A DNA stretch of 58,403 bases from Patescibacteria group bacterium (GTDB taxonomy: Bacteria > Patescibacteriota > Microgenomatia > UBA1400 > 2-01-FULL-45-11), in the NCBI GenBank assembly GCA_042569595.1, contig JBHPHI010000003.1:1-58403 (forward strand), given 5' to 3'. Positions 1 to 14,525 of the stretch are shown in pieces (positions within the stretch are counted from its first letter, which is position 1; every line of letters starts with the position of its first letter). Made by a program: the position numbers and the translations under genes. Under the pieces are notes generated by a model, which did no database searches, was not told the DNA's origin, and saw only the letters and a program-made list of their open reading frames with translations.

Positions 1-2
1 TC

Positions 3-3000
3 TTTTTTGGAAATAATTTGTTTGTTTTTGGACCTAAAAGTAGCGTTCGTCCACTGAATTGCGCTGCCTGTTGTTATTAGTGTTAATAGGTCTGATTTTT
101 GTTTCGGATCACTAAGAATTTCTTGCGATTTTCCAACAAATACTATCTTCAACTTTCTATCTTTGTCTATAACTCTAACCTCATTAGAATTGTTTAGTAT
201 TTCATCTAGGTCTCTTTCAACTTGCGAAACCTCCTCTGCTTTTTTGATGATTCCAACATTAATAACAACCTTATTGTCCTTAATGCCCGCAAATTTGAAA
301 TCGCTCCAAGTTGCTCCTTGCTCGATTTCAAAAAGGTCATTTTTTATCCTTTCCCATGCAGACAGTTCTGATTTAACTATGTTTGAAAATGGGAGTAAGT
401 CTAATGCGTTATAGAAGGCAAGAAGTAGTGGAGGTGTTTTGGATTCTGTGTTTTCTCTATCCTCAGTTAATTCTTCTTGTTGTTGAGTGTTTTTTTCATC
501 AACCTCTCCTGCTTCAGATCTTTGAGTTCTAAACTCTTGAATGATTCTGTCCTGCTCTTCGAAGGCGTCTATAGCTTCGTACACTAAGTCTCTAATGAAG
601 AAGAAGGCTTTGGGAAAGAAGCTGACAAAATTGTTTCCTATTAAACTTAAGAAGGCTGAAAATGCTTGACCTGCTAGTTGAATCCTTCTTGTAATTGGAA
701 GCCTTGAAAGATCGATTCCTGTTTGCCCTCCTGGCTCATCGGTATCATCGTCGTCAACTTTTATTTGAACAGCGTTGGCTATTACAAATTTCTCTCTTGG
801 TTTTTGATATGAGAACTGACTTGAGTAAGTTTCATATGTTTGAGTGGTAGGAACTTGGAATCCGACCATGGTTTGTGAGACATCTACCTCTTCTGCGCCC
901 CTATATGCCTCACTGAGACCGTAATCTAATCCTACTGCCTTACCTCCAAAATGCTCACCAGCTGCACTAATACTGTGACCGAAATAAACTCTAGGAGCAT
1001 TAAATATTGCGTTGTATTCGTCAACAACCTGCTCATAAATAAAACCGTCTCTTCTGGTTAGGTTTTGGAATAGGCTTCTAGCCTCTGACCTGTTTCCAGA
1101 CCTTAATATTCCTTTTATATTTCCGTTAATTCTGTTTACTGTGTCCTGAGGAGATAAGCCTTCTCTTGCCGCTCTTGCTCTAAATTCCTTTAGATCTCTT
1201 AATACCTGATGATGGTCTATCCCTCCTTGCGGAGTTCTTGGTATCTGACCATATCTGTGGTCGTCTGGATATAGATAGTAGATGTAGGCTGGTGTGTCAG
1301 AATGTTGGAGAATAGAGCCATCTGATCTAAAACCAATAGCATCTAAATTAGCTAGAAAATCTCTAACTCCGCTAGTTCTGTTGGCTATTCTAATCTCTTC
1401 CCTACTAACTCCATTTTTTCTAAACAGAGTTCCTGGACCCCAAAGGTTCTCATTATTTTCTTCTAGCATGGCCCAAAGGAATTGGACTTCATGATTTCCT
1501 AGAAGCATCTCAACGTTGGCGCCCTGTTTTTTAAGATCAACCAGCCTTCTAATGATCTCTATTCCTGGGGAATAAGACCTTCCTCCCAGTCTTCTTACAA
1601 CAAATTGGGCGGGTTGGCCCGTAGCTTTATCAATACCTCTGTCGAAATAGTCTCCCAAAAAGGTGAGAATGTCGTGGTTTTTGTTTTTTAAGGTCCACGA
1701 TCCGTCACTGTTGACTGAAATGACACCTTGCCTGATTAGTATTTTTTCTAGTTTTGCCAAGTCTGAATGAACATCTGCAATTATCCTTCTAGTTGCTTGG
1801 GTGTATTGTGTTTCAGTTCCAACTTGCTTTGTGTGAGTTTGAACTGTGGTTTTGTGTGAAAGTCCGCTGATTACGTTATTGCTCATTTGAGCTGCTATTC
1901 TAGTAGCGTTTTGTGATAGCTGATCAACAATTCTTGTAATGTTTTCTTCTGAAATTCCAGCTTCTCGTAGTTTGTTGGTTAAATAATCAATAACTTTGGG
2001 TGAACTAAGGCGACTTATAATCCTATTGTAAGACTCGACCATAATTGTTTGTTGGACATCTGCCGGAGAAGCTTGAGTGTTTTGGAATTCTTGCTGAACC
2101 TGCCTGTTAACTGCAGTAGTTTCTTGGTTGATTATTGCCTGACTAAAATCATCTAGTACTCTGTCTGCCAATCTTTGCTGTGGGGTTTTAAATAGGTTTT
2201 GAACGTTGGATCTTAGTTGTTCTATTAAACTAATGGTTGGTTCTTGTTCCTCTTCCTGAGTGGTAGCTGGTGTGATTGGCTCTTCTGATCTATCTTTTGC
2301 TTGTTGACTTGGTGCCTTTGTTTCTTCTGCGAGTTTGTTGTTTAGATCATGATCAACCACCTTATGTCTTCCATATCTTCCTAAGAATGCTTCTGGGAGA
2401 GCTATTCCGTGCTCATTCATAAATAGAGCAACATCTGTCTCGTGATCTGATATAGATTGGTCGTGAGCAATTTGACTTAAAGCTCCAGAGTCGAGACCCC
2501 TGTCTTCTAACATAAATTGAAGTCCGTGTAACCATTCCTCAAGGTAAACTACAGCAATATTGTGCTGTTGGTTTCTAGTAAGCTCTCCATCAACTACTGA
2601 AGCCCAACCAAGCGTAATTTGTCCGTTGGTGTGATACATGGAGGCATAGGCTACATTGTTTGCAATTACTTGAGTCATTCCTTCTGTATCTTCTGCGTAA
2701 ATTTGACCTCTGCCCGTATCAACTAATATTCCTACTGCTTCTGCCTCTTTTTGACCAGTGCTTAAATGCTCTATTGCTTCTTTGTATTGACCGCTTTTGA
2801 TTAAGTCTACTGCTTGGCCAATGTAGTTTATGTACGCAGCCTCAGCTTCACTAAATTCTTGTCCCCTTAGGTTGGGTGACTGAGAAATAATCTTTTCATC
2901 TGTGGTTGGTGAGTCATCTATTTTGGCGGTTGTTCTTGCGGAGAATTCTAGGTTAATCTCTCCTTTACTAGTTTGCGTGATTATGACTGCCTGTCCGCCG

Positions 3001-6000
3001 ATTATTATTGTGTCTCCAGAGTTAATGATTTGAGTTCCAAGTTTTTCTATTAGTTTTCCGTTAACCAAAGTTCCGTTAGTGCTCCCTCTGTCTCTGATAA
3101 CCCAGTTTCCTTGATTATCTTTGTATATATCTGCGTGTTGTCTACTAATTTCTGGGTGACTAATAACAAATCTGTTGGCTGAGTTTCTACCAATTGTGAT
3201 TGGATTGTCTTGTGTGGCCCGATCAGAAGGTACTTTGTGTTGTGTATTTGAATCTAGATCTATTCTTACACTTGGTTCTGGTTGAGTTGTTGGATTGACA
3301 CTATCTATAACCTCATCTTGTGAGGATTCTTCAGTTTTTGGAGCTTCAGTTTCTTTGGGTGTTTCTTCAGTATCTGGAGTTATTTCTGATTCTGTAATAT
3401 CTTCTGTTGTCCCTCCCCTGCCAGTTTGCAAGGTTTGATCTGAGGGTGGTTTTCCGTCATCTGGGAGGGTATCGTCTGTTGGTGGAACTTCTTCTGGCGG
3501 TGGTTCTTGATCGTCAACATCATCCTCTCCTCCTTTTTCTTCTGAGTCAGGTTTTTCTTCCGTTGGCTTATCTTCCCTGGGTGACTCTTTTGGTTTATCT
3601 GGTTTTTCAGTCGTTGTTGCATCTGCTATTGGTCTGAATGGGCCATTAACGTCTTTGAAGCCTGCAATAATATCATCTTGTGTTGCTCCAGCTATTCCTA
3701 GATTTTCCAAAGCTTCTCTTATAGCCTGCTCATTTGCTCTGCCACTCTGGGCATATTCGTATTCTCTCTCAAGTTGTTGAAAATCACTCCTTCCTGACAA
3801 CCATGTGCTTAATGCAGCCCTAACTGATCTTTCACCCTCTGATCCTGTTAGGCCTCTTAAGAAATCTATGCCTTGATTTGAAGATATGCCGCCTTGAATT
3901 TGTTCTTGACTTAGTGCTCCTAATCCAATTACTGATCTACCAATATTGCTAAAATTACTAAATGCCCTGGCGATTGGTTGGACAACATTATAATTAAATG
4001 CTGGGCCCCATCTCTTTGGATTGATTATTGTTCTGGTTGCCTCTTGAACGGTTCTGGTAATAGAGGGTTTTGCTTTGGCTACATAAACTGCTGGCGGTGT
4101 ATCTAAACCCCTATTAACCACATCTGGCATATCAGATTTTGTATAAAATGAAGAGAATTCTTCAAATAAGGTAACGAAGTTTTTGGTTACATAAATCGGA
4201 GTGTCTGGTGTCGGGTTGTCTGAAAATCTTACTCTCCAAGCACCCTCTGCTTCATCGTAGGTTGCAAATCTGTTAATGTCTGGGTGGTCTCTGATTGTGG
4301 GAATGTCTGTATCCCACTGGCTCTTCATAAAATCAATAACTGACCTTGGAGCTCCTTCAACCTGTAGTCTGTCTACCAAGGCCCTAACTTGTTGATGGCC
4401 TGAGTCTATTAGATTAAATGCAACAATGTCGCTGTCAACACCTTTGTTTATAAGATTGGCGTTAAATTGTGAAGTTTCATCTATCTTAGTAAGTGCATTT
4501 TGGTATATTTTGTCCCATTTACCATGCTCTCTGCTTCCCGATCTTAGTGTGGATAAATGCTCGTCTCTAGCCCTTACTACTGCGTCTCTTTGCATGGCGC
4601 TGGTTAGGTCTGAGAAGTTTTTCCAGGCAATATCTTGGCTCTTGGCCTGAGTAGCTTTGGTTCTGTGACTTTCAAGGTCAAAAAGGCCTAAATCTCTTCC
4701 AGATGCAAACTCTTCCCAAGCAGTTGTTGCTCTGGCTGTTTCAACTATTTGATCAGCTTTTTCTGCAGCTAATCTTAATACTTCAGGATCGTTGGTGGGC
4801 CTTCCTGATTCTATAAGACGCGCTATCTCCGGGTCAGTTTCGATTAATTTATTAACTAATTGTCCATAGTCACCACCACCTTCACCAGTTTCAAAATTAT
4901 ATGTTTTTCTACCCCCATCTATATCGACCAATAAGGCAAGAAGTCTATTTCTTCCAACCCCCTGATTAACAAGGTCTCCATCTGAAGCTCTAATAACTAA
5001 ATCCCCTTCAAATGAATATTCTGTTAAGTGTTTCCAGGTAGGAATGTAGTTGCCCTCTACTACGTCTTTTATTGACACCCCTAAACTGACCCCCGTTTCT
5101 CTATTTAGTTGGTAAATAACTAGCAGCTCCTCCCCACTGTCAGCGGTTGAATCTTTAATAAACTTCCTCCAAGAATCGATGTCCGGATCGCCGTTTTTCT
5201 TTGTGAAATAAACCTTATCACCTAGTGAACCATCATCATTTCTGGTTCTTTGATAGAAAGATCCATCTGGGTCTGTGCCAGCAATAATTTTTCTACCTGG
5301 AAATTGCTTGTCTATGTAGGCGTCCATATCCTCCCAAGAAATGCCGCCGTTTTCGTTGACAATGGCAATTGGTTTGGTGATTTCATTAATCTCAGCCTGG
5401 AGAACGTTTGTTTTTCCTACATTGTTTATGTATTCAATGGAATCACTGTCTCCGTTAGTAATTCTTGAGATTTCAGCATCTAGCTCCTGAATCTTAGATT
5501 CGATCTGTTCTATAAGTTTTGTGTTACCAGAATTTCTGGCTGTTTCTGCTTCGACTAGTAATGCGTGCTTATTTTCTGATAATCTTACTGCCTCAACATA
5601 AACTTCTTCTCCTTTTATAGTTACTTCTTTTCCGCTTAGTATTCTTGTGGTTTCGGGGATTAATTCTGGCTTAGGCAAGTCTTGAATTCCTCCCCTGATT
5701 GAATCTAATTCTGTTTGAAGCCGAGGTGCATTGTTTGACACCTCTGATTGAGAGTGTCTTATCAATACCTGTTGTTGATCTGCGTCTAAATCTTGCCAAG
5801 ATACTTCTCCTTTTGATTTAATATTTCTTGCGTCTACGCCAGCATCTTCAATAATTCTTATAACTTGATTTGTATTTTGAAGCGTTTCTGCAACATGTCC
5901 TCTAGTGGCGTTATGAAGAATCATATCGGACATGTTTTCTCCTGTCTGACCAACTCTAGCTACTTCAATGTCTCTGGCAGTTCCCGAAACCTGCCCTCCA

Positions 6001-9000
6001 ATTCCCTTAAAGTTGTCGATTACGTCTCCTGGGGTGGCTGAGTAGCCAATCTTTGCAAGCAAACTTGCGTCGGTAATGACTCCTGCTTGTTCGAGTTTAA
6101 TGAACTCTTGGCGCTGTAGTTCTTGTTGTCTCATAATATCGATGGCATTGGTGGTGGATGAGTTTTTGCTAACTGAGAGTTTGGTTGGATCAAAATCTCC
6201 CCTAGGACTGTTGTTTTGGCCTCTAATTATGTCTACCCCCGTAGTGTTTTGAGCATATTGCTGCCAAAAGCTTTGCAGTTTTAGCTCGTTGTCCTGACCT
6301 TTTGTTCTTAGATTTGCTACTCCTTCTTCTACTGAAAAATCGTTTTGCCTAACCTGAGACATAACAAACAACTCTGCCTCCATAGCTGTGTTTTTAGCAA
6401 TAATTCTTTGCTGTAGAACCTCTAAGTCTCCGGTTTGATGAGAGTTTACAAACTCTTGCATAGCTTGCTTTATCTCATCTGGAGACATGTCTTTGGCTTT
6501 AGCTAGGGGTGAATCTCTGAAGGCTGGATGGTCTGACTCTGAAAGAACCATTTGTTTATAAATTTCGCTTTCGAAGTCAGGATTTAAAGGTCTTCCGCCC
6601 TCACCAAAAATAACACCAGCAACTCTTTGCTCGTTATTGTTGGCATCAATAACTTGTTTCCTAAGATTTTCAATTAATGGTAACTTTTGTACTTCATCAT
6701 GAATTTTCACTGGATCATAACTAAGATCTCCAGCAAAATCGATAAAATCTACTTCTTCTCCAGCGCTTCTATAGTAACCCCCGTCGGTAATTGGGGCTTC
6801 ATCTATAAGTTGGTGCTGTGAAGCAAGTTTTTGATACATGACTGCTTCTGGAGAAGTATCGTTCCCTCTAACGAATGAGAAGTTGTGTGATTTTTCGTCT
6901 GTCATAATGATAATTCTTTCACCACTTCCTAGCATTGCCTCTACTTCTTCCGTAATTATTGACCTGAAAGTGTCTCCATTTTTCCCATCTACTCTCTCTC
7001 CAGCGACCCTAATGGTAAACCCTTCATCTTGGTCATATGCGAGAACTCTAACCCCAGCTTGATCTAATAATTCTTGGTCTATAAAGTCGTTTTTAAAACT
7101 ATCTATTAATCCACCAGGGGCACGAATACTTACTGGGGCGCCTGTATCAGTAAGCACCAGAGCGGCAAGTGGTATTTGGACTAAGCTTTTTCCTGATCCT
7201 GCTCCTGATTCGATAACAACCTTTCCTTTAACGACTGCGTCAACAACATCAGTGATCTGGGTGAATCTTGCACCAGCTTCTGGGCCAAAAAGCCTTTGGA
7301 TATGAGTGTCCATAAGGTCAATATTGCTGTTTAGTTGATTAATTAAGGATTTTATTTCTGGAGGAGCTGACCTGCTGACTTCTATTCTTCTATCATTTTT
7401 GTCTATTTTGAGTAACCCATCGGACTCAAATTGCTGCAACTTAGCTATGAGATTTTTGCCAGTAAGTTCTGGGGTGAACGTTTTATCAGAATCACCCCGG
7501 AATCGGGATAAAAAGGTATCTTCAAACCACTGTCCCGCAGTTCTTCTGGTAGTTTGAATGTTTTCTGGTGTAACTGATCCTGATTTAATTTCTATCGCCT
7601 TTGGACTGTCACCAGTTGTTAGCTTGCTCATTGAGTCTGAAGAAATGGTGGCGTCAAGTCGATTTACATTTTCTGTTAATCGAATGGCGTGGCCTTCTGT
7701 GAGGAATTCTCCTGGTATCTTAGTTGAAGGATTGTTGTCGAAGGTAGCTCTAATTTGGTATTCGCCCGTACTTTCATTGAGTTTGTAGATGACTATTTGT
7801 TCACCGCTGTTTCTGCCTATTTCTAATGTTTTTCCGTTAATTTCAATTTTTGTGTCTTTGTTTAAAACTAAATCGTCTGGCGGGGCTCTGACAGGCGTGT
7901 CGTCTGTTGTTGTTTGGGTTCGTGTTGTTTCTTGCTCTGTTTGGTTTACTCTGGTTTCTTCAATGTCAGGTTGTGTAGGTTTAGATGATGGTAGATCCGT
8001 ATCTGTGGTTTCCGAATCAGCTAGTCTAGTTGTTTGTCCAGATATTTCTGTGTCTTGAGTTCTGTAACCACCAACTGGATTTCTCCAGCTGTCTCCGAAT
8101 CTACTCGTTCCAATTTGATTGGTTTGATTAATAAACCTATCTGCTGCAGCTTGGTGTGCATCAATGTCATCCACGTCAGTTGTGCGGATGGAGTTTTCAA
8201 ACTCTTCTTGAGCTTGCCTAAATTGAGCTGACTCCTCATTGTTTGTGAGTCTATCTATTGTTTTTCTTACTCCCGTTGTTAAACTAGCAGCCAAAATTGC
8301 TTGCTCCTGAGAAACTCTGCCGTATAGTTCTACTGATTTTTGTTTTGCATCAATGTCCGTTGGATTGTTCCTGTAGGCTTCATGCGCCTCAATATATGAT
8401 TGTTCTGTTGGTGTGGGGGTTTTCCCAACAGAACCTGCCAACCTTGTCATGTTGTTATCAAGTTCAACTTCTTTATATACAGAGAAGACGTTGTTTCTTA
8501 GATCAATATTTTCATTAAGGCTTGAAAGGGACTGACCTCTAACTACTTCTAATAGTCTTTGTTCGTTTAAGGTTAGGTTTCCATCATCTATTAATGATCT
8601 ACCATAGTTGATTCCCTGATCAATTGAAGCTTCAAACTGACCCTGAGCATATATTGCCCCCTGAAGCATTGCTTCTGCGTCTACTATTGTAAGTTTTATT
8701 GTTTGTCCATCTACTGGATTTACATAGTCTATAAACTCTGGGGCTCCTGGTTTTCGAAATTGCGCCATTAAATCATCTGCTTCTGCTAAGACAGGAAGTT
8801 TCCCAGTATAAGGGTCTGCTTGGACAGTTCTCATTGTGTGAATACCAACACCTAACTGCCCCGTATTAACCATAAGATTCGTCCAGGCTTGACTACATTG
8901 GGCAGGATTTGCGAGAGGCCCTCCTCCACAAGACATCATAATGTCCCACCCTGTTGCTGCTTCATCTATTACGTCGGTGCCTATATTCAGTCCTGTATCT

Positions 9001-12000
9001 ACAACCTGTGTTGCTCTATTGGATGATCCAGCAGGAATGAGAGACCCAGCAGTTCGAGCAAGAGCTAATCCAAGGTTAACTTTTGCTAAAGAACAGTTGC
9101 TTTCGCTGTAGTGTTCTGCGGAATCATCACATTGGATAGTCATATTTCCGTAAGCTAAACCACTTCCTGCGACTTGAGTGACTACGTTTGCAGCTCTAAA
9201 AGCATTTGAGGTTTGATTTGCCACTTGAGATGCTACCTTTTTAGCTGCCTCTAGTGAGCCTAAAGTTCCAGCTTTGGCAGCTGCTATGGCAGAATTTCCA
9301 ACAAGATTTGATATTAGAGTATCTCCTCCTCCAGCTCCCAGAAAAGCTCCTCCAACCTGAAGAACTGTTCCTCCAACAGCAAGCCCACACTGAAGACCAT
9401 CAAGCTCTTCTCCCCCACAAACGGTTCCTAAATTGTCTAAGCCAACGGTAGCGTTATAAATGCTAGCTCCAGTTTGAAGAGTGAAAGCTGTTTGAGCCAT
9501 GGCTGCCCATCCACCACCAGAAAGCCCTTGCCCTATTCCAGTAACTGCTCTTGTGAGAAGTCCTCCTGTTGAAGATGCTGCAATTGTCCCACCTGAAGCA
9601 ATGGCTGCCCCTGCCCCAAACACAGGAATGGCAATTGCTGCTATTTTGACTGCATCAGCTGCTGGGGCAGCTCCTTGAATGAGAGCTCCTCTTGTTCTGT
9701 CCCACCAAGTGTCTCCGTTTAGTAGTAGGTCATTTCCCCTCATGGTGGCACCGTTAGTTTTGTCGTTATAGTAGATTACAAATCTTGTTAATAGATCTCC
9801 ATTTTCTGCCATGTCATCATATGTTTGTTGCATTTCGGCAAAATTTACATTTATTTCATCTACTGTGATCCTTCCATCTCCGTTAATGTCTTCAAAATCA
9901 TCTACTTCTCCACTTTGCCACTTTTGATACCTTTCTACCTGAGCACATGCGTTGCTATCATTTTCAAAATTACAATTTATTACCTCTCCGGTATCTTCAT
10001 CAAATTCTATTTGTTGAAGATTCATAAGACTTGGAAGTATGTTTTGGTAAGCTAACGCTTGCTGTTGTTCAATGTTGTCTGATTCAAAATCGACTACACA
10101 ATTTCTTTCTGAATAATAATCTATGCCTCCGCTTTCATCGCATCTATAACCATCACTGCAACTGTTTTGTGTGCTGCCAATTAAATTTATGTTGCAGGTA
10201 CCAGCAGAGAGTCTTTGACTATCACTAACGACACAGCTCGTTCCCTCTACCTTATATCCATCTGGGCAACTAGGTCTGCCTTGACCAGTATTATATTGAG
10301 GATCAATTACACCATCGATTCCAAACGTATAACCATCATATATTCCTGGTACTCCCATTGCATCGTCTACCACACATGCGTTTTTATCCCCATCCCATCT
10401 AGCGTTAAGGCCCGGCATGGTTGCTCCACAGGCCTCTTGTCTGATTTCAAACCCTTCTTTTAGTTCTGTGTAGGTTTCATAACTTATTTCTCCTTGAGTG
10501 TACTGGTCTAGTAAATTGTCTCCGTATTCTTCATGTAGGTTTATGGCTGTATTTAGACTATTAATTGTTTCCTGGGGCAGAAATTGTCCGTAACTACCCT
10601 GTCCCATACAACCACCTGAATCGATTAAGCTTTCAATTCTAGCCATGCTGGTACCACCCTGCTCTCTTAAGCAGTCTTGCTGGACTGAAGACGATCCGTT
10701 AATCGCATAGTCTGCAAATTCACCCATGGGGTCTTTGCATCTTTCTCTATCTCTTCCTGGAGATGAATATTTTTCAAAACACATTTCAGCTAATCTCTCT
10801 ACATCTTGACTGGCAACTGCTGAGGCAATAGCTAAGGCATTGGCGTGAATTACTAAATCAGGATTTATTTCTCCTAATTGTTCTATTAGATTAGCTTGAT
10901 ACTCATCTCGATAAGTTGTGCATGCTTGTCCAGCATAACGAGCAGATTGTGCGTCCATACCCTGAATACTTGCCAAACATTCTTCTTGAGATTGTGTTGC
11001 TTGAGTCAGCATCCAAGAAGCTTCTGAATATATATAGTTAGTTTCTATGGCCTCTTTAATTTGATCCACCTGGTCTTCTCCAAACCTATCTTCTGCTTGT
11101 GTAAGTAGTTCTTCATATCTAATACAGCTTGGTGCTCCTGAGCTAGCTGTGCTGCCGCCGACGCCTTCACAAGCAGTTCCATATTCTTGTAAGTCTTCAT
11201 ATAATTCTTGGTTTTGTCGTGCAGTTTGTACTGTTTGACTTAAAGCTTCCTTCTGGTCATCGGATAATGCATTTCTTTCTTCTCTGTATTCAGCACAACC
11301 AGGAGCACTGTAGTTTCTCGAACATTCAACTCCTTGTTCTACTAAGTGGACTATACTTTCTTGTGCTTCGATTCTTTCTTGTGTGTCTGACAATATCCCA
11401 TCAAAAGCTCTTTGGTCGTCTCTTGACAGTGAGTCGTAGTCTGGCCAAAAACCCCTACAACCCTCATCCCACCTAGGCTTATCTGCGCATTCCAAACCCA
11501 ATTCAACTAGAGGACCTAGGGTGTAATTTATTCTGTCTTGTTCCTGAGCATAGGCTAAGGCTCTTTCGTACATTGCTTTTTGCTCATCTGTTAGGTTGCT
11601 TACTGTTTGCTCGTGACTGTAACACTCATAGTCTGAATAGGCTAAACTTCCTCTTTCTGGACAACTCAACCCTTCTTCAATTAATCCGCTTAATTGAGTA
11701 TCTATAAATATTTGAGCTTCTACTGAAGAACTGATAGCTTCTTGGGCTGCGGTAGATAATTGAGCCATTGCTGCAAAATGTGCCCTACACCTATCTTCTT
11801 CTCGACCATACATATTTTCAGGATCGGAACAAAAAATGCTATCTTCTAAAAGCCCCTCCCTATCTTCGTGAATAAGGTCTAAATCGCCTGCAGAATGCGT
11901 GTATCCAATTTCGACATTTTCTCTTTCAATAACGTAGTTAGGACCGTAAGTTACTTGACATCCTGGACACTCCATCCACTTACCATCGTTACATCTCCAT

Positions 12001-13100
12001 CTAACACCTGAGCTGTTTCTGGGTCCGGTTGCTGTTGTTCCGTGACCTACTGACCCAGCTTCTCCAGGACATGAGTCTCCAGTGTCTCCTCCAGCTGTTG
12101 CTGCTTCAAGTAAAGCTTGCCTTCTTAGGGCTTCTGCTTCTTGTGAAGCAACCTGCTCCCCATAGGCAGACAAAGCATCTCTTAAGGCTGCTCTTTTTTC
12201 TGGGTCCGCAACAAGAGCTATTTCTGCTTCAATATCAGGATTGCTTAAACCTACCCAACATCCACCATCTTTTTTTGCGCTACCATCTGGACAAGTTGAC
12301 GAAGATACTGGAACAAAAACTGTTCCTTCTGCGGCATTGTAATCTGGGATTGTGCCTGCGCATATTGTGCCGTTTGAATTATGACACTGACCATCACCTC
12401 CATAATGTTCGGTGGGGTTCCACTGACAACTTCCCCCAACACAAGATTGGCCACCACTACATTCTCCTGCTCCAACTCCACATACGCTGCACGTTGGTGG
12501 GTTTTGTTTATAGCAAGGAGCGCCAGCATATCCATAAAATTCCTCTGCTAGGGCGTTACAACCTCCACTTAATGACCCACCACAAAATCCTCCATCTGTT
12601 CCACCCGCACACCATTTGGTACAATTTTTTGCACAACCAGGATCTTTTCTGGTACAGACTCCTTTTGGCACTCCTGTTCCCGTAGAACGATTTCCCCAAT
12701 AATATATTCCACCGTTATAGTCTTTCATGTAAGAATCAGTAAGTTTGTTTCCTTTACAATTAGAGCTGTCCGAGACAATTCGCTTACTGTGACAGACTGT
12801 GCCGTTTGGAGTTTGCTTTCCAAGACCAAGATGCAGGCTTCCATCAACACACCTCTCGCTTCCGGTAAAATCCCATCCACCTGAGGCTGGTTCGCAAGAG
12901 TTTACCTCTGGGGGTGGAGTTGGAGGCGGGGTTGGAGGTACATGATCATCTGGAGTTGGAGCGGTGTATCCCGGCTCTTCAGGTTCGTAAGCAATTTCTG
13001 CTGCTTGAATGGGTTTGGCATATATAAAAGGAGTGAACAGATTTGCCAACAGAGAAATGAGGTTGATTATGGCGATGGTTCTTAGTTTTCTTTTATTCAT
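3..13100 (-). CDS. Giant multidomain membrane/exported protein, at least 4366 aa, running off the left edge of the window
   Basis: ATG at 13100 overlaps the upstream stop (ATGAATAA). Manual translation finds no in-frame stop down to base 3. Starts MNKRKLRTIAIINLISLLANLFTPFIYAKPIQAAE and ends in-window with ...KNKQIISKK. Probably absent from the ORF track because it has no stop in the window. Confidence 0.95.
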   Translation of the reverse strand, partial: MNKRKLRTIAIINLISLLANLFTPFIYAKPIQAAEIAYEPEEPGYTAPTPDDHVPPTPPPTPPPEVNSCEPASGGWDFTGSERCVDGSLHLGLGKQTPNGTVCHSKRIVSDSSNCKGNKLTDSYMKDYNGGIYYWGNRSTGTGVPKGVCTRKDPGCAKNCTKWCAGGTDGGFCGGSLSGGCNALAEEFYGYAGAPCYKQNPPTCSVCGVGAGECSGGQSCVGGSCQWNPTEHYGGDGQCHNSNGTICAGTIPDYNAAEGTVFVPVSSSTCPDGSAKKDGGCWVGLSNPDIEAEIALVADPEKRAALRDALSAYGEQVASQEAEALRRQALLEAATAGGDTGDSCPGEAGSVGHGTTATGPRNSSGVRWRCNDGKWMECPGCQVTYGPNYVIERENVEIGYTHSAGDLDLIHEDREGLLEDSIFCSDPENMYGREEDRCRAHFAAMAQLSTAAQEAISSSVEAQIFIDTQLSGLIEEGLSCPERGSLAYSDYECYSHEQTVSNLTDEQKAMYERALAYAQEQDRINYTLGPLVELGLECADKPRWDEGCRGFWPDYDSLSRDDQRAFDGILSDTQERIEAQESIVHLVEQGVECSRNYSAPGCAEYREERNALSDDQKEALSQTVQTARQNQELYEDLQEYGTACEGVGGSTASSGAPSCIRYEELLTQAEDRFGEDQVDQIKEAIETNYIYSEASWMLTQATQSQEECLASIQGMDAQSARYAGQACTTYRDEYQANLIEQLGEINPDLVIHANALAIASAVASQDVERLAEMCFEKYSSPGRDRERCKDPMGEFADYAINGSSSVQQDCLREQGGTSMARIESLIDSGGCMGQGSYGQFLPQETINSLNTAINLHEEYGDNLLDQYTQGEISYETYTELKEGFEIRQEACGATMPGLNARWDGDKNACVVDDAMGVPGIYDGYTFGIDGVIDPQYNTGQGRPSCPDGYKVEGTSCVVSDSQRLSAGTCNINLIGSTQNSCSDGYRCDESGGIDYYSERNCVVDFESDNIEQQQALAYQNILPSLMNLQQIEFDEDTGEVINCNFENDSNACAQVERYQKWQSGEVDDFEDINGDGRITVDEINVNFAEMQQTYDDMAENGDLLTRFVIYYNDKTNGATMRGNDLLLNGDTWWDRTRGALIQGAAPAADAVKIAAIAIPVFGAGAAIASGGTIAASSTGGLLTRAVTGIGQGLSGGGWAAMAQTAFTLQTGASIYNATVGLDNLGTVCGGEELDGLQCGLAVGGTVLQVGGAFLGAGGGDTLISNLVGNSAIAAAKAGTLGSLEAAKKVASQVANQTSNAFRAANVVTQVAGSGLAYGNMTIQCDDSAEHYSESNCSLAKVNLGLALARTAGSLIPAGSSNRATQVVDTGLNIGTDVIDEAATGWDIMMSCGGGPLANPAQCSQAWTNLMVNTGQLGVGIHTMRTVQADPYTGKLPVLAEADDLMAQFRKPGAPEFIDYVNPVDGQTIKLTIVDAEAMLQGAIYAQGQFEASIDQGINYGRSLIDDGNLTLNEQRLLEVVRGQSLSSLNENIDLRNNVFSVYKEVELDNNMTRLAGSVGKTPTPTEQSYIEAHEAYRNNPTDIDAKQKSVELYGRVSQEQAILAASLTTGVRKTIDRLTNNEESAQFRQAQEEFENSIRTTDVDDIDAHQAAADRFINQTNQIGTSRFGDSWRNPVGGYRTQDTEISGQTTRLADSETTDTDLPSSKPTQPDIEETRVNQTEQETTRTQTTTDDTPVRAPPDDLVLNKDTKIEINGKTLEIGRNSGEQIVIYKLNESTGEYQIRATFDNNPSTKIPGEFLTEGHAIRLTENVNRLDATISSDSMSKLTTGDSPKAIEIKSGSVTPENIQTTRRTAGQWFEDTFLSRFRGDSDKTFTPELTGKNLIAKLQQFESDGLLKIDKNDRRIEVSRSAPPEIKSLINQLNSNIDLMDTHIQRLFGPEAGARFTQITDVVDAVVKGKVVIESGAGSGKSLVQIPLAALVLTDTGAPVSIRAPGGLIDSFKNDFIDQELLDQAGVRVLAYDQDEGFTIRVAGERVDGKNGDTFRSIITEEVEAMLGSGERIIIMTDEKSHNFSFVRGNDTSPEAVMYQKLASQHQLIDEAPITDGGYYRSAGEEVDFIDFAGDLSYDPVKIHDEVQKLPLIENLRKQVIDANNNEQRVAGVIFGEGGRPLNPDFESEIYKQMVLSESDHPAFRDSPLAKAKDMSPDEIKQAMQEFVNSHQTGDLEVLQQRIIAKNTAMEAELFVMSQVRQNDFSVEEGVANLRTKGQDNELKLQSFWQQYAQNTTGVDIIRGQNNSPRGDFDPTKLSVSKNSSTTNAIDIMRQQELQRQEFIKLEQAGVITDASLLAKIGYSATPGDVIDNFKGIGGQVSGTARDIEVARVGQTGENMSDMILHNATRGHVAETLQNTNQVIRIIEDAGVDARNIKSKGEVSWQDLDADQQQVLIRHSQSEVSNNAPRLQTELDSIRGGIQDLPKPELIPETTRILSGKEVTIKGEEVYVEAVRLSENKHALLVEAETARNSGNTKLIEQIESKIQELDAEISRITNGDSDSIEYINNVGKTNVLQAEINEITKPIAIVNENGGISWEDMDAYIDKQFPGRKIIAGTDPDGSFYQRTRNDDGSLGDKVYFTKKNGDPDIDSWRKFIKDSTADSGEELLVIYQLNRETGVSLGVSIKDVVEGNYIPTWKHLTEYSFEGDLVIRASDGDLVNQGVGRNRLLALLVDIDGGRKTYNFETGEGGGDYGQLVNKLIETDPEIARLIESGRPTNDPEVLRLAAEKADQIVETARATTAWEEFASGRDLGLFDLESHRTKATQAKSQDIAWKNFSDLTSAMQRDAVVRARDEHLSTLRSGSREHGKWDKIYQNALTKIDETSQFNANLINKGVDSDIVAFNLIDSGHQQVRALVDRLQVEGAPRSVIDFMKSQWDTDIPTIRDHPDINRFATYDEAEGAWRVRFSDNPTPDTPIYVTKNFVTLFEEFSSFYTKSDMPDVVNRGLDTPPAVYVAKAKPSITRTVQEATRTIINPKRWGPAFNYNVVQPIARAFSNFSNIGRSVIGLGALSQEQIQGGISSNQGIDFLRGLTGSEGERSVRAALSTWLSGRSDFQQLEREYEYAQSGRANEQAIREALENLGIAGATQDDIIAGFKDVNGPFRPIADATTTEKPDKPKESPREDKPTEEKPDSEEKGGEDDVDDQEPPPEEVPPTDDTLPDDGKPPSDQTLQTGRGGTTEDITESEITPDTEETPKETEAPKTEESSQDEVIDSVNPTTQPEPSVRIDLDSNTQHKVPSDRATQDNPITIGRNSANRFVISHPEISRQHADIYKDNQGNWVIRDRGSTNGTLVNGKLIEKLGTQIINSGDTIIIGGQAVIITQTSKGEINLEFSARTTAKIDDSPTTDEKIISQSPNLRGQEFSEAEAAYINYIGQAVDLIKSGQYKEAIEHLSTGQKEAEAVGILVDTGRGQIYAEDTEGMTQVIANNVAYASMYHTNGQITLGWASVVDGELTRNQQHNIAVVYLEEWLHGLQFMLEDRGLDSGALSQIAHDQSISDHETDVALFMNEHGIALPEAFLGRYGRHKVVDHDLNNKLAEETKAPSQQAKDRSEEPITPATTQEEEQEPTISLIEQLRSNVQNLFKTPQQRLADRVLDDFSQAIINQETTAVNRQVQQEFQNTQASPADVQQTIMVESYNRIISRLSSPKVIDYLTNKLREAGISEENITRIVDQLSQNATRIAAQMSNNVISGLSHKTTVQTHTKQVGTETQYTQATRRIIADVHSDLAKLEKILIRQGVISVNSDGSWTLKNKNHDILTFLGDYFDRGIDKATGQPAQFVVRRLGGRSYSPGIEIIRRLVDLKKQGANVEMLLGNHEVQFLWAMLEENNENLWGPGTLFRKNGVSREEIRIANRTSGVRDFLANLDAIGFRSDGSILQHSDTPAYIYYLYPDDHRYGQIPRTPQGGIDHHQVLRDLKEFRARAAREGLSPQDTVNRINGNIKGILRSGNRSEARSLFQNLTRRDGFIYEQVVDEYNAIFNAPRVYFGHSISAAGEHFGGKAVGLDYGLSEAYRGAEEVDVSQTMVGFQVPTTQTYETYSSQFSYQKPREKFVIANAVQIKVDDDDTDEPGGQTGIDLSRLPITRRIQLAGQAFSAFLSLIGNNFVSFFPKAFFFIRDLVYEAIDAFEEQDRIIQEFRTQRSEAGEVDEKNTQQQEELTEDRENTESKTPPLLLAFYNALDLLPFSNIVKSELSAWERIKNDLFEIEQGATWSDFKFAGIKDNKVVINVGIIKKAEEVSQVERDLDEILNNSNEVRVIDKDRKLKIVFVGKSQEILSDPKQKSDLLTLITTGSAIQWTNATFRSKNKQIISKK
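900..1790 (-). other. PPP-family metallophosphatase domain in the giant protein
   Basis: Ordered motifs IADVHSD (DVH 1767-1775), LGDYFDRG (1635-1655), LGNHE (1488-1499), QHSD (His at 1302), FGHS (972-983) and GLDYG (918-929). Confidence 0.9.
2400..2560 (-). other. Zincin-like metal-binding motif (EExxH variant) in the giant protein
   Basis: VYLEEWLHGLQ (EEWLH 2526-2540), followed about 30 aa later by DHETDVA (2427-2444). Confidence 0.5.
2994..3200 (-). other. FHA domain in the giant protein
   Basis: ITIGRNSANRFVISHPEISRQHADIYKDNQGNWVIRDRGSTNGTLVNG...GDTIIIG has the conserved GR, SxxH and STNGT motifs. Confidence 0.92.
4900..7260 (-). other. SecA-like/SF2 (DEAD-type) ATPase module in the giant protein
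   Basis: Walker A VIESGAGSGKS (7185-7205), Walker B-like LIDEA (6795-6809), motif III GYSATP (6033-6041) and motif VI-like NQGVGRNR (4944-4964), in SF2 order. Confidence 0.75.
8820..9660 (-). other. Gly/Ala-rich hydrophobic helical bundle with three Cys-paired loops
   Basis: Segments such as AVKIAAIAIPVFGAGAAIASGG and GLAVGGTVLQVGGAFLGAG. Loops C-x9-C (9387-9419), C-x11-C (9093-9131) and C-x10-C (8895-8930). Confidence 0.65.
9855..9890 (-). other. EF-hand-type Ca-binding loop in the giant protein
   Basis: DINGDGRITVDE fits D-x-N-x-D-G-x-I-x-x-x-E. Confidence 0.65.
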
Positions 13101-13779
13101 TGAATGTCTTTTCTACTCTGATTGGTGGAAAAGGTGCATGTATTTTTTGATCAATTAGTTGTTGCCCGTCTAAATTAAGATTTCCAACTGCCCTAATGAA
13201 CAACTTATCTGCCTTGTACATAATTGGGCTTATGTCTACTGAAAAATTTCCAAAACTATTTGTCTCAGTAATTACTGGATGATGATATTCGGGTGTGGCT
13301 GGAGAAATAGTCACTATAGCTCCTGGAATTCCAACCCCCTCCTCATCAACTACGACACCATATGCTGGCTCTGGGAGTTGAGGAGCCTCTTCTCTTTGAG
13401 TAATCGTTTTTACTTTTTGGCTATATTTAGTAGTTTTGGTGCCAGAGATTATATAGATAGAGTAATTAGTGTCTGGGGTGAGGTTTTTTATTTCCAGTAG
13501 GTGTGTTCTTGTTTTGTTGATTGACTCACACGCAAATCTGAATTGATTAAATTTGTCTGTGTGAGCGAAAAGGCAGCTCCTATTTTGTTTCCCAGTTATC
13601 CAAGAAACATAAAGTGACCTTTCTCCAATATTTCCAACCTGAATTATTGAAGGCCTTTCTTTTGAAAACTGGAGATAGACTATAAATAATGCAATTGTTA
13701 ATTGAACAATTGAAATATAATGTTTTTTGATTAAATCTAAGATGATATTGATGATTTCTTTTGCTTTTATGTTTTTCAT
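13093..13779 (-). CDS. Membrane-anchored Fn3 (purple acid phosphatase N-terminal-like) plus carboxypeptidase-regulatory-like domain protein
   Basis: N-terminal TM segment; LYVSWIT...THLLEIKNLTPDTNYSIYI (Fn3); PAYGVVVDEEG...GAIVTI...TNSFGNFSVD. Confidence 0.7.
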   Translation of the reverse strand: MKNIKAKEIINIILDLIKKHYISIVQLTIALFIVYLQFSKERPSIIQVGNIGERSLYVSWITGKQNRSCLFAHTDKFNQFRFACESINKTRTHLLEIKNLTPDTNYSIYIISGTKTTKYSQKVKTITQREEAPQLPEPAYGVVVDEEGVGIPGAIVTISPATPEYHHPVITETNSFGNFSVDISPIMYKADKLFIRAVGNLNLDGQQLIDQKIHAPFPPIRVEKTFNE

Positions 13780-14525
13780 TTGAATTGATTTAAAATAATT
13801 TCTTGATTGGTTTTAACCATGTAGCCAATTCCTTCTTCTATCTTGAAATCGGTACCATACTCTTTGATGTTGTCTTGTGAATATAGTCTTTTTACAAATG
13901 GCTCCCATGTTCCTGATCGCCACCAGTCTATTTCGTTAGCATTTTCGTTCCCGTTGCTATTTAAGTTGTTTAAGATTGAACTGGCTGTTTTTTCTTGAGC
14001 AACAAATCCTACTGTATTCCAGCCTTTTTGAAGCAAGATTTCTCCAACATCATTTCTGGTGAGAGGCTCTCCAATAATTTTCCAATCAAAAGTTTTGTGA
14101 TTTCTTAAGAAGTATGCTTTTCCTGGCTCAATAGAAAAATTGCTTCCGTATTGCTCTTGTCCTCGTTGGGTGTATTCCTGCCACCTATCACCATCCCACA
14201 TGCTAACAGTGGTTACGTATCCTCCTTTGTCGGCTACATCCACAACCAGCTCTGCAGCGGTTCGAAAATTGAACGGCTTGTGTGGAAATGAGACAAGATT
14301 CCATCCATTTAGCATTTTTATTATCACCTTGTGATCTGATACCTCTTGTTTTTCGAATGGGACAACTGCTTCTTCATCAAAACTTGCTTGAGAAAGGTTT
14401 GTGAAAGTTGATGAGTATTCTTCTGAGGCTTTTGGTAATTGAGATTTTATTGTTATTCCAACAACTAGCAGGGCAAGTAATGTTGCGACAATTATGAATA
14501 TGATTTTTTTAGTGTTTTTATTCAT
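13776..14525 (-). CDS. Exported protein with two GWN(L/T)V-F repeat domains
   Basis: N-terminal TM segment then PKAS. Repeats GWNLVSFP...W...W..Y...F.IEPGKAYF and GWNTVGF...WW...W...F.IEEGIGYM. Confidence 0.8.
   Translation of the reverse strand: MNKNTKKIIFIIVATLLALLVVGITIKSQLPKASEEYSSTFTNLSQASFDEEAVVPFEKQEVSDHKVIIKMLNGWNLVSFPHKPFNFRTAAELVVDVADKGGYVTTVSMWDGDRWQEYTQRGQEQYGSNFSIEPGKAYFLRNHKTFDWKIIGEPLTRNDVGEILLQKGWNTVGFVAQEKTASSILNNLNSNGNENANEIDWWRSGTWEPFVKRLYSQDNIKEYGTDFKIEEGIGYMVKTNQEIILNQFK

What the first reader, a model, noticed from the sequence alone, without database searches (positions are those of the whole stretch)
3..13100. Hidden giant gene (at least 4366 aa) linking an extracellular Cys-rich head to intracellular enzymes
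Seen: one stop-free frame covers the first 13.1 kb and continues past the edge. Its order is signal-like N-terminus, Pro linker, Cys-rich region, EF-hand loop, helical bundle, SecA-like ATPase, acidic linker, FHA, EExxH motif, PPP phosphatase and more. Established: giant multidomain genes occur in symbiotic or predatory lineages such as Omnitrophota and Patescibacteria and are mostly uncharacterised. Inference: either a host-contact effector delivering enzymes into a host cell, or a huge transmembrane sensor. I do not recognise this domain combination as a described system.
Basis: partly seen in the sequence, partly recalled or inferred. Interest (0 to 1): 0.95.

Follow-up and report, generated by a model that had tools for sequence, protein, structure and literature searches.

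The report
Giant envelope gene with conserved cassette
The 13-kb stop-free frame is a real gene and very probably the first 60% of a roughly 7,375-codon membrane protein of an ultra-small (Microgenomates/Patescibacteria) bacterium; it belongs to an unannotated family of 4,000-8,800-residue envelope proteins that always follow the same three small genes, and it probably mediates cell-surface contact.

Summary
Observation confirmed: window 3..13100 (minus strand) is one stop-free frame of 4,366 codons that runs off the contig. The window is a whole contig (C3). Its first 55 nt equal the end of contig C23, in frame with a 3,026-codon 5'-open frame, which gives 7,375 aa. The nearest genome (G001) has the same split and the same flanks (murJ-lepA-cassette on one side, hrcA-grpE-dnaK on the other), so the join is about 90% likely.

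Domain claims:
- FHA and PPP/Metallophos pass Pfam cut-offs.
- The signal/anchor, Pro linker, Cys-rich head, Ca-loop (EF-hand pattern) and membrane segment are present.
- "SecA-like" fails every statistical test (Pfam HMM, PDB, hhalign, 1.84-billion-protein phmmer). What is conserved across five relatives is a Walker A ... DEA(H) NTPase core with SF2-like spacing.
- "EExxH" has no support.

New finding: a conserved four-gene cassette (about 100-aa wHTH-like protein, two single-pass beta-rich proteins, then the giant gene) occurs in 9 of 286 genomes of the order and on metagenome contigs. Its giants include single called genes of 4,084 and 8,774 aa. All share a conserved N-terminal helix, a Cys-pair ectodomain, a TM region and a Cys-poor tail.

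Verdict: a new variant of the known theme of giant membrane proteins in ultra-small bacteria. Function is inferred, not shown.

The parts
3..13100 (-). Giant gene, N-terminal 4,366 codons (P0001). It continues past window position 1 onto contig C23 (L001:3774-12851, minus strand), for 7,375 aa in total.
1..55 (.). 55-nt exact overlap with the end of contig C23 (in-frame continuation) and with the end of the reverse complement of C42 (which gives a stop after 17 codons and lands inside a truncated SBP_bac_5 gene). This is a de Bruijn fork at k=55.
12999..13100 (-). aa 1-34: positively charged N-terminus plus a hydrophobic helix carrying the family-conserved motif ..NLISLLANLFTPF..; a signal peptide or signal anchor.
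   Evidence: 62% identical over 32 aa to a homologue whose remainder is unalignable
12903..12995 (-). aa 36-66: Pro-rich linker (PPTPPPTPPP).
   Evidence: also present in G001
12111..12902 (-). aa 67-330: Cys-rich head (20 Cys, 7.6%). It is 33% identical to the G001 head, with all aligned Cys invariant.
9921..12071 (-). aa 344-1060: acidic, mostly helical ectodomain with Cys pairs. In aa 424-790 the pairs recur about every 55-65 aa.
   Evidence: weak collinear BLAST matches to G001
9852..9890 (-). aa 1071-1083: DINGDGRITVDEI, the only PROSITE EF_HAND_1 match in 7,375 aa. G001 has DSDGDGQREWVP at the equivalent place, before WWDRT and the TM segment.
   Evidence: (EF-hand_5, E 0.044)
8895..9686 (-). 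aa 1139-1402: membrane region. It has one strongly hydrophobic helix (aa 1139-1176, KD 1.96), a weaker one (aa 1236-1258), Gly/Ala-rich helices and three Cys pairs. The last Cys before a 4,618-aa Cys-free run is at aa 1402.
6111..7283 (-). aa 1940-2330: P-loop NTPase core. Motifs are GAGSGKS (aa 1968), a motif Ia-like RAPGG, a motif Ib-like IIIMTDE and LIDEA (aa 2100). It is conserved in G001, G035 and two metagenome homologues.
   Evidence: no family-level hit
3231..3653 (-). aa 3150-3290: acidic, Pro/Thr/Glu-rich linker. It weakly resembles a second such linker at aa 1683-1798.
2997..3200 (-). aa 3301-3368: FHA domain with GR, SRQH and STNGT intact.
   Evidence: PF00498, 1.4e-19, 70.7 bits against a cut-off of 20.7
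2526..2540 (-). aa 3521-3525: the EEWLH ('EExxH') motif. No supporting evidence.
   Evidence: single occurrence; no HExxH anywhere; no HMM or PDB hit
921..1784 (-). aa 3773-4060: PPP-type metallophosphatase with DVH, GDYFDRG, GNHE and GH motifs.
   Evidence: PF00149, 31.6 bits against a cut-off of 21.5; NinI-like Ser/Thr phosphatase PHROG, 6.5e-5
366..698 (-). aa 4135-4245: two moderately hydrophobic segments (KD about 1.3), a possible membrane hairpin after the phosphatase.
13093..13779 (-). Cassette gene 3 (partner 2, 228 aa): N-terminal TM plus Ig-like domains. Its stop overlaps the giant gene's start.
13776..14525 (-). Cassette gene 2 (partner 1, 249 aa): N-terminal TM plus two beta domains. 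It is the marker used to find the family.
14518..14820 (-). Cassette gene 1 (100 aa, basic, winged-helix-like by eye). It is 50-56% identical in three metagenome cassettes.

Best explanation
The frame is the 5' 60% of a real gene of about 22 kb (7,375 codons, 2.4% of this 0.9-Mb Microgenomates genome). It is the last gene of a conserved four-gene cassette.

Shown:
- The gene family and its cassette.
- A conserved N-terminal hydrophobic helix.
- A Cys-pair-rich ectodomain, a membrane segment, and a long Cys-free region.
- A conserved Walker A/DEAx NTPase core.
- In this genome only, an FHA domain and a PPP phosphatase.
- Further hydrophobic segments, then a C-terminal Cys-containing region that is homologous to the C-terminus of the G001 orthologue.

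Inferred mechanism: a multi-pass envelope protein. Its disulfide-stabilised, Ca-binding head and stalk project from the cell, together with the two small membrane-anchored partner proteins, and contact another cell surface (host or prey). Its very large cytoplasmic portion acts as an ATP-driven scaffold and signalling platform: an NTPase motor, a phosphothreonine reader (FHA) and a phosphatase eraser. This links surface contact to the cell's response or to assembly of the structure. Extracytoplasmic loops in relatives carry cell-wall enzymes (VanY in G001). The enzymatic payload varies between lineages.
For: Gene reality.

Join:
- The 55-nt overlap is in frame with a 5'-open 3,026-aa frame.
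- G001 has the same two halves next to the same flanking genes: murJ-lepA-cassette and hrcA-grpE-dnaK.
- A C-terminal match lies 419 versus 425 aa from the end, E 1e-4.
- Single-contig relatives are about 6,600 aa, 8,774 aa and 4,084 aa.

Cassette: 9 of 286 genomes of the order. All four metagenome or NCBI contigs read show the same gene order.

Shared architecture.

Cys partition: 56 Cys in aa 69-1402, none in aa 1403-6020, and 10 in aa 6021-7338 after the hydrophobic cluster at aa 5497-5902. G001 shows the same pattern.

NTPase core: conserved in five members. G001 versus jgi2587 is 38% identical, E 2e-64.

FHA and PPP: above Pfam cut-offs.

VanY in the orthologue sits between two TM segments.

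Literature: CPR genomes encode large Cys-rich extracellular proteins thought to mediate attachment (PMC4736985). Vampirococcus has giant membrane proteins (PMC8080830). Giant genes elsewhere combine TM regions, divergent NTPase domains, Ser/Thr phosphatases and GGDEF, and are linked to cell-wall attack (bioRxiv 10.1101/2023.11.21.568195).
Against:
- Topology rests on hydropathy and the Cys distribution only. Only one segment per cluster is strongly hydrophobic. 18% of this genome's longer ORFs also lack Cys. Other giant ORFs here are Cys-free in regions that look extracellular.
- FHA and PPP are not seen in any relative, so the signalling part of the model may be specific to this lineage.
- The NTPase class is unresolved.
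- More than 85% of the protein has no detectable homologue or fold.
- The partner 1 model (pLDDT 84) has no structural neighbour that hints at a ligand.
Confidence: 0.5

Rival explanations
1. Self-exporting or contact-dependent effector. The head binds a host cell. The embedded NTPase, acting like the SecA-type domains proposed for Omnitrophota giant proteins, drives export of the Cys-free portion, so the FHA and phosphatase modules act in or on the host.
For: - A 4,618-aa Cys-free run is typical of proteins that must stay unfolded for translocation (my knowledge).
- The NTPase lies downstream of the membrane segment, as described for giant proteins with SecA-like domains.
- The weak best hits of the phosphatase include an effector-type family: WipA_Phos at E 0.19 and T4SS_Wip at 0.0012, both far below cut-off.
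- The payload varies between lineages.
Against: - No SecA signature by any test.
- No secretion-system genes in the cassette.
- No cleavage or toxin modules detected.
- Cys-free proteins are common in this genome.
- Additional TM segments argue for a resident membrane protein.
Confidence: 0.15
2. An own-envelope or cell-shape scaffold rather than a host-contact device. On this reading the protein organises the bacterium's own peptidoglycan synthesis, remodelling or division. FHA and PPP would act as in the actinobacterial FhaA/FhaB-PstP-MurJ circuit, and VanY-type peptidases would trim the wall.
For: - The cassette lies next to murJ and lepA in G000 and G001.
- It lies next to mreB on three metagenome contigs.
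- VanY is present in the G001 orthologue.
- The best NCBIfam resemblance of the FHA is FhaB/FipA (44.9 bits, below cut-off).
Against: - The neighbourhood is not conserved beyond these genes.
- Housekeeping wall machinery would not be restricted to 9 of 286 genomes of the order, nor diverge to about 23% identity while LepA stays at 61%.
- A 7.6%-Cys head is typical of attachment proteins.
Confidence: 0.2
3. Assembly artefact or decaying pseudogene. Either the long frame is a chimera of unrelated genes, or C3 truly ends at the C42 junction, giving a 4,383-aa product.
For: The contig end is a graph fork with two possible neighbours. Reads could not be inspected. No second assembly of this sequence exists in the collections searched.
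Against: - The C42 path lands in the middle of a truncated SBP_bac_5 gene.
- The C23 path is in frame with a 5'-open 3,026-aa frame.
- G001 reproduces both halves and both flanks.
- Relatives carry 4,084-8,774-aa single genes on long contigs.
- There is no stop in 22 kb.
Confidence: 0.05

Closest known systems
Giant multi-domain membrane proteins of Omnitrophota and Actinobacteriota (West-Roberts et al. 2023, bioRxiv 10.1101/2023.11.21.568195)
   Same: - Ultra-small or host-dependent bacteria.
- Huge single ORFs that break assemblies.
- Extracellular regions plus TM segments followed by a divergent NTPase.
- Accessory Ser/Thr phosphatase or GGDEF domains.
- Cell-wall-degrading domains (VanY in the G001 orthologue).
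- Most of the sequence has no annotation.
   Different: - Those proteins give Pfam SecA_DEAD and preprotein-binding hits; this one does not.
- This one is 7.4 kaa, not 30-85 kaa.
- Different phylum.
- No dockerin or glycosyl-hydrolase repertoire detected.
- It has a conserved three-gene leader cassette and a Cys-partitioned layout that the passages of that paper I searched (keyword search only) do not mention.
Large cysteine-rich extracellular proteins of CPR bacteria (Peribacteria, Anantharaman et al. 2016, PMC4736985) and the giant membrane proteins of Vampirococcus (PMC8080830)
   Same: Signal peptide; a head with 7.6% Cys, similar to the 7.2 +/- 2.4% reported there; no functional annotation; strong sequence variation; proposed attachment role.
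   Different: Those average about 1,650 aa (up to 4,163 aa in Vampirococcus) and are described as extracellular. Here the Cys-rich part is only the first 15-20% of the protein. It is followed by membrane segments and more than 4,600 Cys-free residues carrying NTPase, FHA and PPP modules.
SecA (SF2 translocation ATPase)
   Same: Walker A GxGK[ST], a following helix-strand pattern and an LIDEA string. The position just after a membrane segment recalls the SecA-like domains of other giant proteins.
   Different: No SecA_DEAD HMM hit. No PPXD, scaffold or wing. hhalign probability below 1%. The genome has its own canonical SecA (C9, 401 bits).
FHA / PPP Ser-Thr signalling modules (e.g. FhaA/FhaB with PstP-type phosphatases; lambda/NinI-like PPP phosphatases)
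   Same: An intact FHA phosphothreonine-binding signature and all PPP metal-binding motifs lie in one polypeptide.
   Different: They are embedded in a 7,375-aa membrane protein. No HMM-supported partner kinase domain was found: a DFG-containing kinase-like stretch at aa 6270-6345 has no HMM support. Neither module is present in any relative found.

Membership tests
SecA / SecA_DEAD (PF07517) | Match to the SecA_DEAD profile | tested here: not met
   No Pfam hit on P0001 at E<=1, or on pieces at E<=10. A six-frame search of the own genome at E<=10 hits canonical SecA (401 bits) and RecG (28 bits) but not this gene.
SecA / SecA_DEAD (PF07517) | Profile-profile similarity to SecA over the nucleotide-binding domain | tested here: not met
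   hhalign of the query, and of 3- and 5-sequence family profiles, against a 12-sequence Patescibacteria SecA alignment gives probability 0.3-0.7%. That is no better than control segments, and SecA ranks about 42nd among own-genome ORFs.
SecA / SecA_DEAD (PF07517) | Preprotein cross-linking domain, helical scaffold and wing | tested here: not met
   No Pfam or PDB sequence hit for aa 1901-3149. Single-sequence AF2 was unusable (pLDDT 38), so the fold could not be checked.
SF2 helicase/translocase superfamily | Motifs I, Ia, Ib and II in order with SF2 spacing, conserved in homologues | tested here: inconclusive
   GxGK[ST], xxP, hhh(G/T)T..(G) and hhDEA(H) align in ours, G001, G035, jgi2587 and jgi8774. 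The strict PROSITE Walker A pattern is not matched. The best long hhalign alignment is to the genome's DEAD-box helicase, at only 8-9% probability.
SF2 helicase/translocase superfamily | Second RecA-like domain with motifs IV-VI | tested here: inconclusive
   GYSATP (aa 2354) and QGVGRNR (aa 2713) exist but do not align across homologues. No Helicase_C hit.
FHA domain (PF00498) | Profile match above the gathering score, plus the GR / SxxH / NG phosphothreonine-binding residues | tested here: met
   70.7 bits against 20.7, full-length match 1-67/67. IGRNS, SRQH and STNGT are visible in the sequence.
PPP / calcineurin-like metallophosphatase (PF00149) | Profile match above the gathering score, plus the DxH, GDxxDRG, GNHE and GH motifs | tested here: met
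   31.6 bits against 21.5. PHROG NinI-like phosphatase at 6.5e-5. DVH, GDYFDRG (aa 3816), GNHE (aa 3868) and FGHS present.
EF-hand Ca-binding loop | 12-residue DxDxDG-type loop; helix-loop-helix profile match | tested here: inconclusive
   A single PS00018 pattern match at aa 1071, against about 0.03 expected by my estimate. A DxDxDG loop sits at the equivalent site in G001. Pfam EF-hand_5 scores only E 0.044, 13.7 bits, against a cut-off of 25.9.
Zincin (HExxH) or LAS/VanY-type metallopeptidase at the 'EExxH' site | HExxH, or SxHxxGxAxD plus ExxH, with a profile match | tested here: not met
   No HExxH in 7,375 aa. No peptidase HMM hit. No SxHxxGxAxD upstream of EEWLH (read). VanY is present only in the G001 orthologue.
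New 'cassette-linked giant envelope protein' family (defined here) | Follows the partner 1 / partner 2 genes; conserved N-terminal ..NLLTPF.. helix; Cys-pair ectodomain, TM, Cys-poor tail | tested here: met

The most novel reading that the evidence does not exclude
The cassette encodes a previously unrecognised envelope-spanning contact machine of Patescibacteria. It would be a single polypeptide of 4-9 kaa with both ends outside the cell and a multi-thousand-residue cytoplasmic loop that contains its own SF2-type motor and lineage-specific enzymes. It would be assembled with two dedicated membrane partners and a small regulator. It would serve as the attachment, feeding or injection device that these secretion-system-poor episymbionts use on their hosts.
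Probability: 0.12. Interest if true: 0.9.

Novelty: new variant of a known kind. Interest (0 to 1): 0.62.

Why it matters
Patescibacteria make up a large share of bacterial diversity and live attached to other cells, yet the molecules that make and use that contact are largely unknown. This gene takes 2.4% of a genome of about 0.9 Mb. It is tied to a conserved, easily recognised four-gene cassette and recurs as 4-9 kaa genes in several families of the order. That gives a concrete, searchable marker (partner 1 or the 100-aa protein) for finding such genes even though the giants themselves are invisible to homology searches and break assemblies. It also offers a test case for how giant bacterial proteins are inserted, and for whether embedded NTPases and Ser/Thr signalling modules couple surface contact to cell physiology.

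Tried and rejected
- An exact 74-mer across the contig end was absent from metagenome contigs.
- Word-based search of the whole 4,366 aa found only itself. Exhaustive phmmer of aa 1901-3100 against 1.84 billion representatives also found only itself.
- PDB phmmer on four segments covering aa 1-1500, 1901-3149, 3401-4366 and the whole C23 part found nothing.
- Pfam on pieces at E<=10 gave only noise. PHROGs gave only the phosphatase.
- No paralogue in the own genome. No internal repeats by BLAST except the two acidic linkers.
- AF2 of aa 1941-2800 without an alignment gave pLDDT 38 and was unusable.
- Searches with the head alignment in genome contigs, metagenome contigs and the 5.8-billion-protein set found only G001 or nothing.
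- Searches of G001 and G017 with our aa 2801-4366 and with the C23 part returned nothing. A direct BLAST later found one weak C-terminal match.
- A kinase-like reading of aa 6270-6345 (HIDFTRIN ... LLDFG) and an alpha/beta-hydrolase reading of GYSAG (aa 6708) have no significant HMM support; Abhydrolase_3 scores E 0.012.
- The partner 1 model (pLDDT 84) has no PDB or BFVD structural neighbour.
- The genes downstream of the G031 giant are not hrcA/grpE.
- The rest of the 8,774-aa gene could not be fetched because the record is not held.
Full report
**1. The observation**

The window is a complete contig (C3) of a 0.91-Mb, 47-contig genome bin. The ORF listing with open ends shows one frame on the minus strand from 13100 (ATG) down to 3. 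It is 4,366 codons long with no stop before the contig edge. The longest competing frame inside it is 218 aa. At about 40% GC roughly 6% of random codons are stops, so chance is about e^-280 (my estimate).

The ATG overlaps the stop of the upstream gene (ATGAATAA). The frame is coding. Pfam FHA and Metallophos match above their cut-offs, and the N-terminus has a syntenic homologue with conserved cysteines.

**2. Where the gene ends**

The first 55 nt of C3 are identical to the last 55 nt of contig C23 and of the reverse complement of contig C42. This is the only fork involving C3 in the contig-end graph at k=55; one other overlap links C11 and C41.

- *C23 path.* It is in frame with a 3,026-codon frame that is open at its 5' end. 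This gives one ORF of 7,375 codons that stops at C23 3771-3773, followed by hrcA-grpE-dnaK.
- *C42 path.* It gives a stop after 17 codons and lands in the middle of an SBP_bac_5 gene that lacks its N-terminal half. That arrangement is implausible. It is probably a chimeric edge or a rare variant.

No other assembly of this sequence exists in the collections searched.

Independent support comes from the nearest genome, G001. It is the only other member of the same family-level group, and its record title is 'Microgenomates group bacterium RIFCSPHIGHO2_01_FULL_45_11'.

- Its contig C9 carries murJ-lepA-partner1-partner2, then a 3'-open giant frame of 335+2,892 aa that is split at a masked N run.
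- Its contig C34 carries a 5'-open 4,620-aa frame directly upstream of hrcA (69% identical to ours), grpE and dnaK.
- Our aa 6956-7040 match G001-C34 aa 4195-4289 (E 1e-4). These lie 419 and 425 aa from the respective C-termini.

Relatives on single contigs reach about 6,600 aa (G031), 4,084 aa (NCBI JBFOMW010002721.1) and 8,774 aa as one called gene on a 251-kb contig. I put the C3-C23 join at about 0.9.

**3. Domain claims**

*FHA.* PF00498, E 1.4e-19, 70.7 bits, aa 3301-3368, with GR, SRQH and STNGT present. Supported.

*PPP phosphatase.* PF00149 scores 31.6 bits against a cut-off of 21.5. A NinI-like phosphatase PHROG scores 6.5e-5. DVH, GDYFDRG, GNHE and GH are present. Supported.

*N-terminal features.*
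- N-terminal hydrophobic helix (aa 8-28), Pro linker and Cys-rich region are present.
- All 66 Cys of the 7,375-aa protein fall in two blocks: 56 in aa 69-1402 and 10 in aa 6021-7338. Between them is a 4,618-aa Cys-free run that spans the contig junction.
- The proteome Cys frequency is 0.66%, although 37 of 208 ORFs of at least 400 aa also lack Cys.

*EF-hand loop.* DINGDGRITVDEI at aa 1071 is the only PS00018 match. G001 has DSDGDGQREWVP at the equivalent place before WWDRT and the TM segment. The Pfam EF-hand_5 hit is sub-threshold. A Ca-binding loop is plausible; a canonical EF-hand is not shown.

*'Helical bundle'.* One strongly hydrophobic helix (aa 1139-1176) and one weaker helix (aa 1236-1258) sit in a Gly/Ala-rich stretch with three Cys pairs. 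Homologues have one to three hydrophobic segments at this position. The number of membrane passes is not determined.

*'SecA-like ATPase'.* Not supported.
- There is no Pfam hit on the whole protein or on pieces.
- A SecA_DEAD six-frame search of the genome at E<=10 finds canonical SecA and RecG only.
- There is no PDB hit.
- Exhaustive phmmer of aa 1901-3100 against 1.84 billion proteins finds only itself.
- hhalign against a 12-sequence Patescibacteria SecA alignment gives probability below 1%, the same as control segments. With 3- and 5-sequence family profiles SecA ranks about 42nd among own-genome ORFs.
- Single-sequence AF2 failed with pLDDT 38.

What is real is an NTPase core conserved in five otherwise barely alignable homologues:
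- The shared elements are GxGK[ST], a following xxP strand, an hhh(G/T)T strand and hhDEA(H), with SF2-like spacing.
- G001 versus jgi2587 is 38% identical here (E 2e-64).
- G001 versus the 8,774-aa protein gives E 7e-10.

I call it an SF2-like (DEAH-type) P-loop NTPase of unresolved family.

*'EExxH'.* A single EEWLH. There is no HExxH anywhere, no HMM or PDB support, and no conservation. Not supported.

*C23 part.* There are no significant domains. It has hydrophobic segments at aa 5497-5524, 5548-5569 and 5867-5902. By eye there is a kinase-like DFG stretch and a GYSAG nucleophile elbow; these are leads only.

**4. The family and its cassette**

Sequence searches with the giant protein found nothing. 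The upstream 249-aa gene (partner 1) proved a good marker. It occurs in 9 of 286 genomes of the order and in 17 further protein clusters from metagenomes.

Wherever enough contig is available, the order is the same. A basic, winged-helix-like protein of about 100 aa comes first (50-56% identical). It is absent in G001. Partner 1 follows (TM plus two beta domains), then partner 2 (TM plus Ig-like; weak fn3/CarboxypepD_reg hits), then a giant gene.

The giants share these features:
- A conserved N-terminal helix (..NL.SLL.NLLTPF..), which is better conserved than anything else in the protein. The two closely related JGI Ga0309788 members (jgi8774, jgi2587) lack the motif.
- A Cys-pair-rich ectodomain of 800-1,700 aa.
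- Membrane segment(s), then a Cys-poor remainder.

None of the relatives examined has a Pfam hit except G001's C-terminal half. That half carries VanY (34.7 bits against a cut-off of 25) between two hydrophobic segments, and a sub-threshold GGDEF. FHA and PPP were seen only in our gene.

Divergence between G000 and G001:

| Protein | Identity |
|---|---|
| LepA | 61.5% |
| MurJ | 55% |
| partner 1 | 44.5% |
| partner 2 | 29% |
| giant head | 33.6% |
| rest of giant | about 23-25%, essentially unalignable |

The gene evolves faster than its neighbours. The two genomes are themselves distant.

AF2 of partner 1 with 18 sequences gave a confident model (pLDDT 84). It has no PDB or BFVD neighbour.

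**5. How it probably works**

*Shown:* gene, family, cassette, motif conservation, FHA and PPP.

*Inferred:* the Cys-rich, Ca-loop-bearing N-terminal 1,100 aa and the C-terminal Cys-containing region are extracytoplasmic. The Cys-free middle with NTPase, FHA and PPP is cytoplasmic. The protein is therefore a multi-pass envelope protein. It projects a disulfide-stabilised head, probably together with the two membrane-anchored partners, and carries a very large cytoplasmic ATPase and signalling scaffold.

Given the episymbiotic lifestyle inferred for CPR bacteria, and published views on their large Cys-rich and giant membrane proteins, host or prey surface contact is the most likely role (0.5).

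Rivals:
- A self-exported or injected effector (0.15).
- An own-cell-wall or cell-shape scaffold (0.2), suggested by murJ and mreB neighbours, VanY, and the FhaB-like best hit of the FHA.
- An artefact (0.05).

**6. Comparison and novelty**

The theme is published: giant genes with TM regions, a divergent NTPase and accessory phosphatase, GGDEF or cell-wall domains in ultra-small or predatory bacteria. So are large Cys-rich surface proteins in CPR bacteria.

Features absent from the passages I searched in those three papers (keyword searches only, not full readings) and from the annotation libraries used:
- This family.
- Its conserved four-gene cassette.
- The conserved N-terminal helix.
- The Cys-partitioned 'outside-inside-outside' layout.
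- A DEAH-type core that is not SecA by any test.
- The FHA and PPP insertion.

I class it as a new variant of a known kind, interest 0.62.

Noticed in passing
window 1-55; L002 (contig C42) 1-799: Contig C42 starts with the same 55-mer as the giant gene, then continues straight into the C-terminal half of an SBP_bac_5 gene (profile positions 171-363). The N-terminal half is nowhere in the bin. This is either a chimeric graph edge or a rare rearranged variant.
   Followed up: partly
genome contigs C7 (9501-20147), C33 (2-5344), C7 (3-8981), C20 (3-5234), C16; also L033 1-4756: The genome holds several other giant ORFs (3,549 aa, 2,993+ aa, 1,781+ aa, 1,744+ aa, and 1,629 and 1,474 aa). Two begin with a MerR/excisionase-like HTH followed by a TM segment and are Cys-free. 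A 3,916-aa MerR-HTH giant lies next to the cassette on the 251-kb JGI contig. None is similar in sequence to the gene studied.
   Followed up: partly
L039 (G001 contig C34) 3373-17232, minus strand: The C-terminal half of the G001 orthologue carries a VanY D-Ala-D-Ala carboxypeptidase domain (aa 728-821) between two hydrophobic segments, and a sub-threshold GGDEF match (aa 2315-2372).
   Followed up: partly
window 13776-14525 (partner 1): The confident AF2 model (pLDDT 84; TM helix plus two tandem beta domains with repeated GWN...W...GYM motifs) has no significant neighbour in PDB or BFVD.
   Followed up: yes
window 14518-14820: This 100-aa basic protein with a winged-helix-like pattern is the best conserved cassette member (50-56% identity in metagenome cassettes). 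It has no Pfam hit and is absent from the G001 locus.
   Followed up: partly
L033 8418-9467; L035 4501-5553; L037 4669-5679: An mreB-like gene lies immediately upstream of the cassette on three independent metagenome contigs. In G000 and G001 the neighbours are lepA and murJ instead.
   Followed up: no
L029 (G031 contig C11) around 12666-12885: The G031 giant is read as two overlapping frames (1,816 and 4,295 aa) around a masked stretch. It contains an internal duplication (52% identity over 232 aa).
   Followed up: no
window 28370-30244 (+) and 32128-34974 (-): These two ORFs (624 and 948 aa) gave the best, P-loop-only, hhalign matches to the giant gene's Walker A region. They were not annotated here.
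   Followed up: no
giant protein aa 1683-1798 and 3185-3293 (window about 7707-8051 and 3222-3545): Two similar acidic Thr/Glu/Pro-rich linkers. The second precedes the FHA domain. The first precedes a degenerate FHA-like stretch (IGRNSGEQIVIY...) that lacks the SxxH motif.
   Followed up: no
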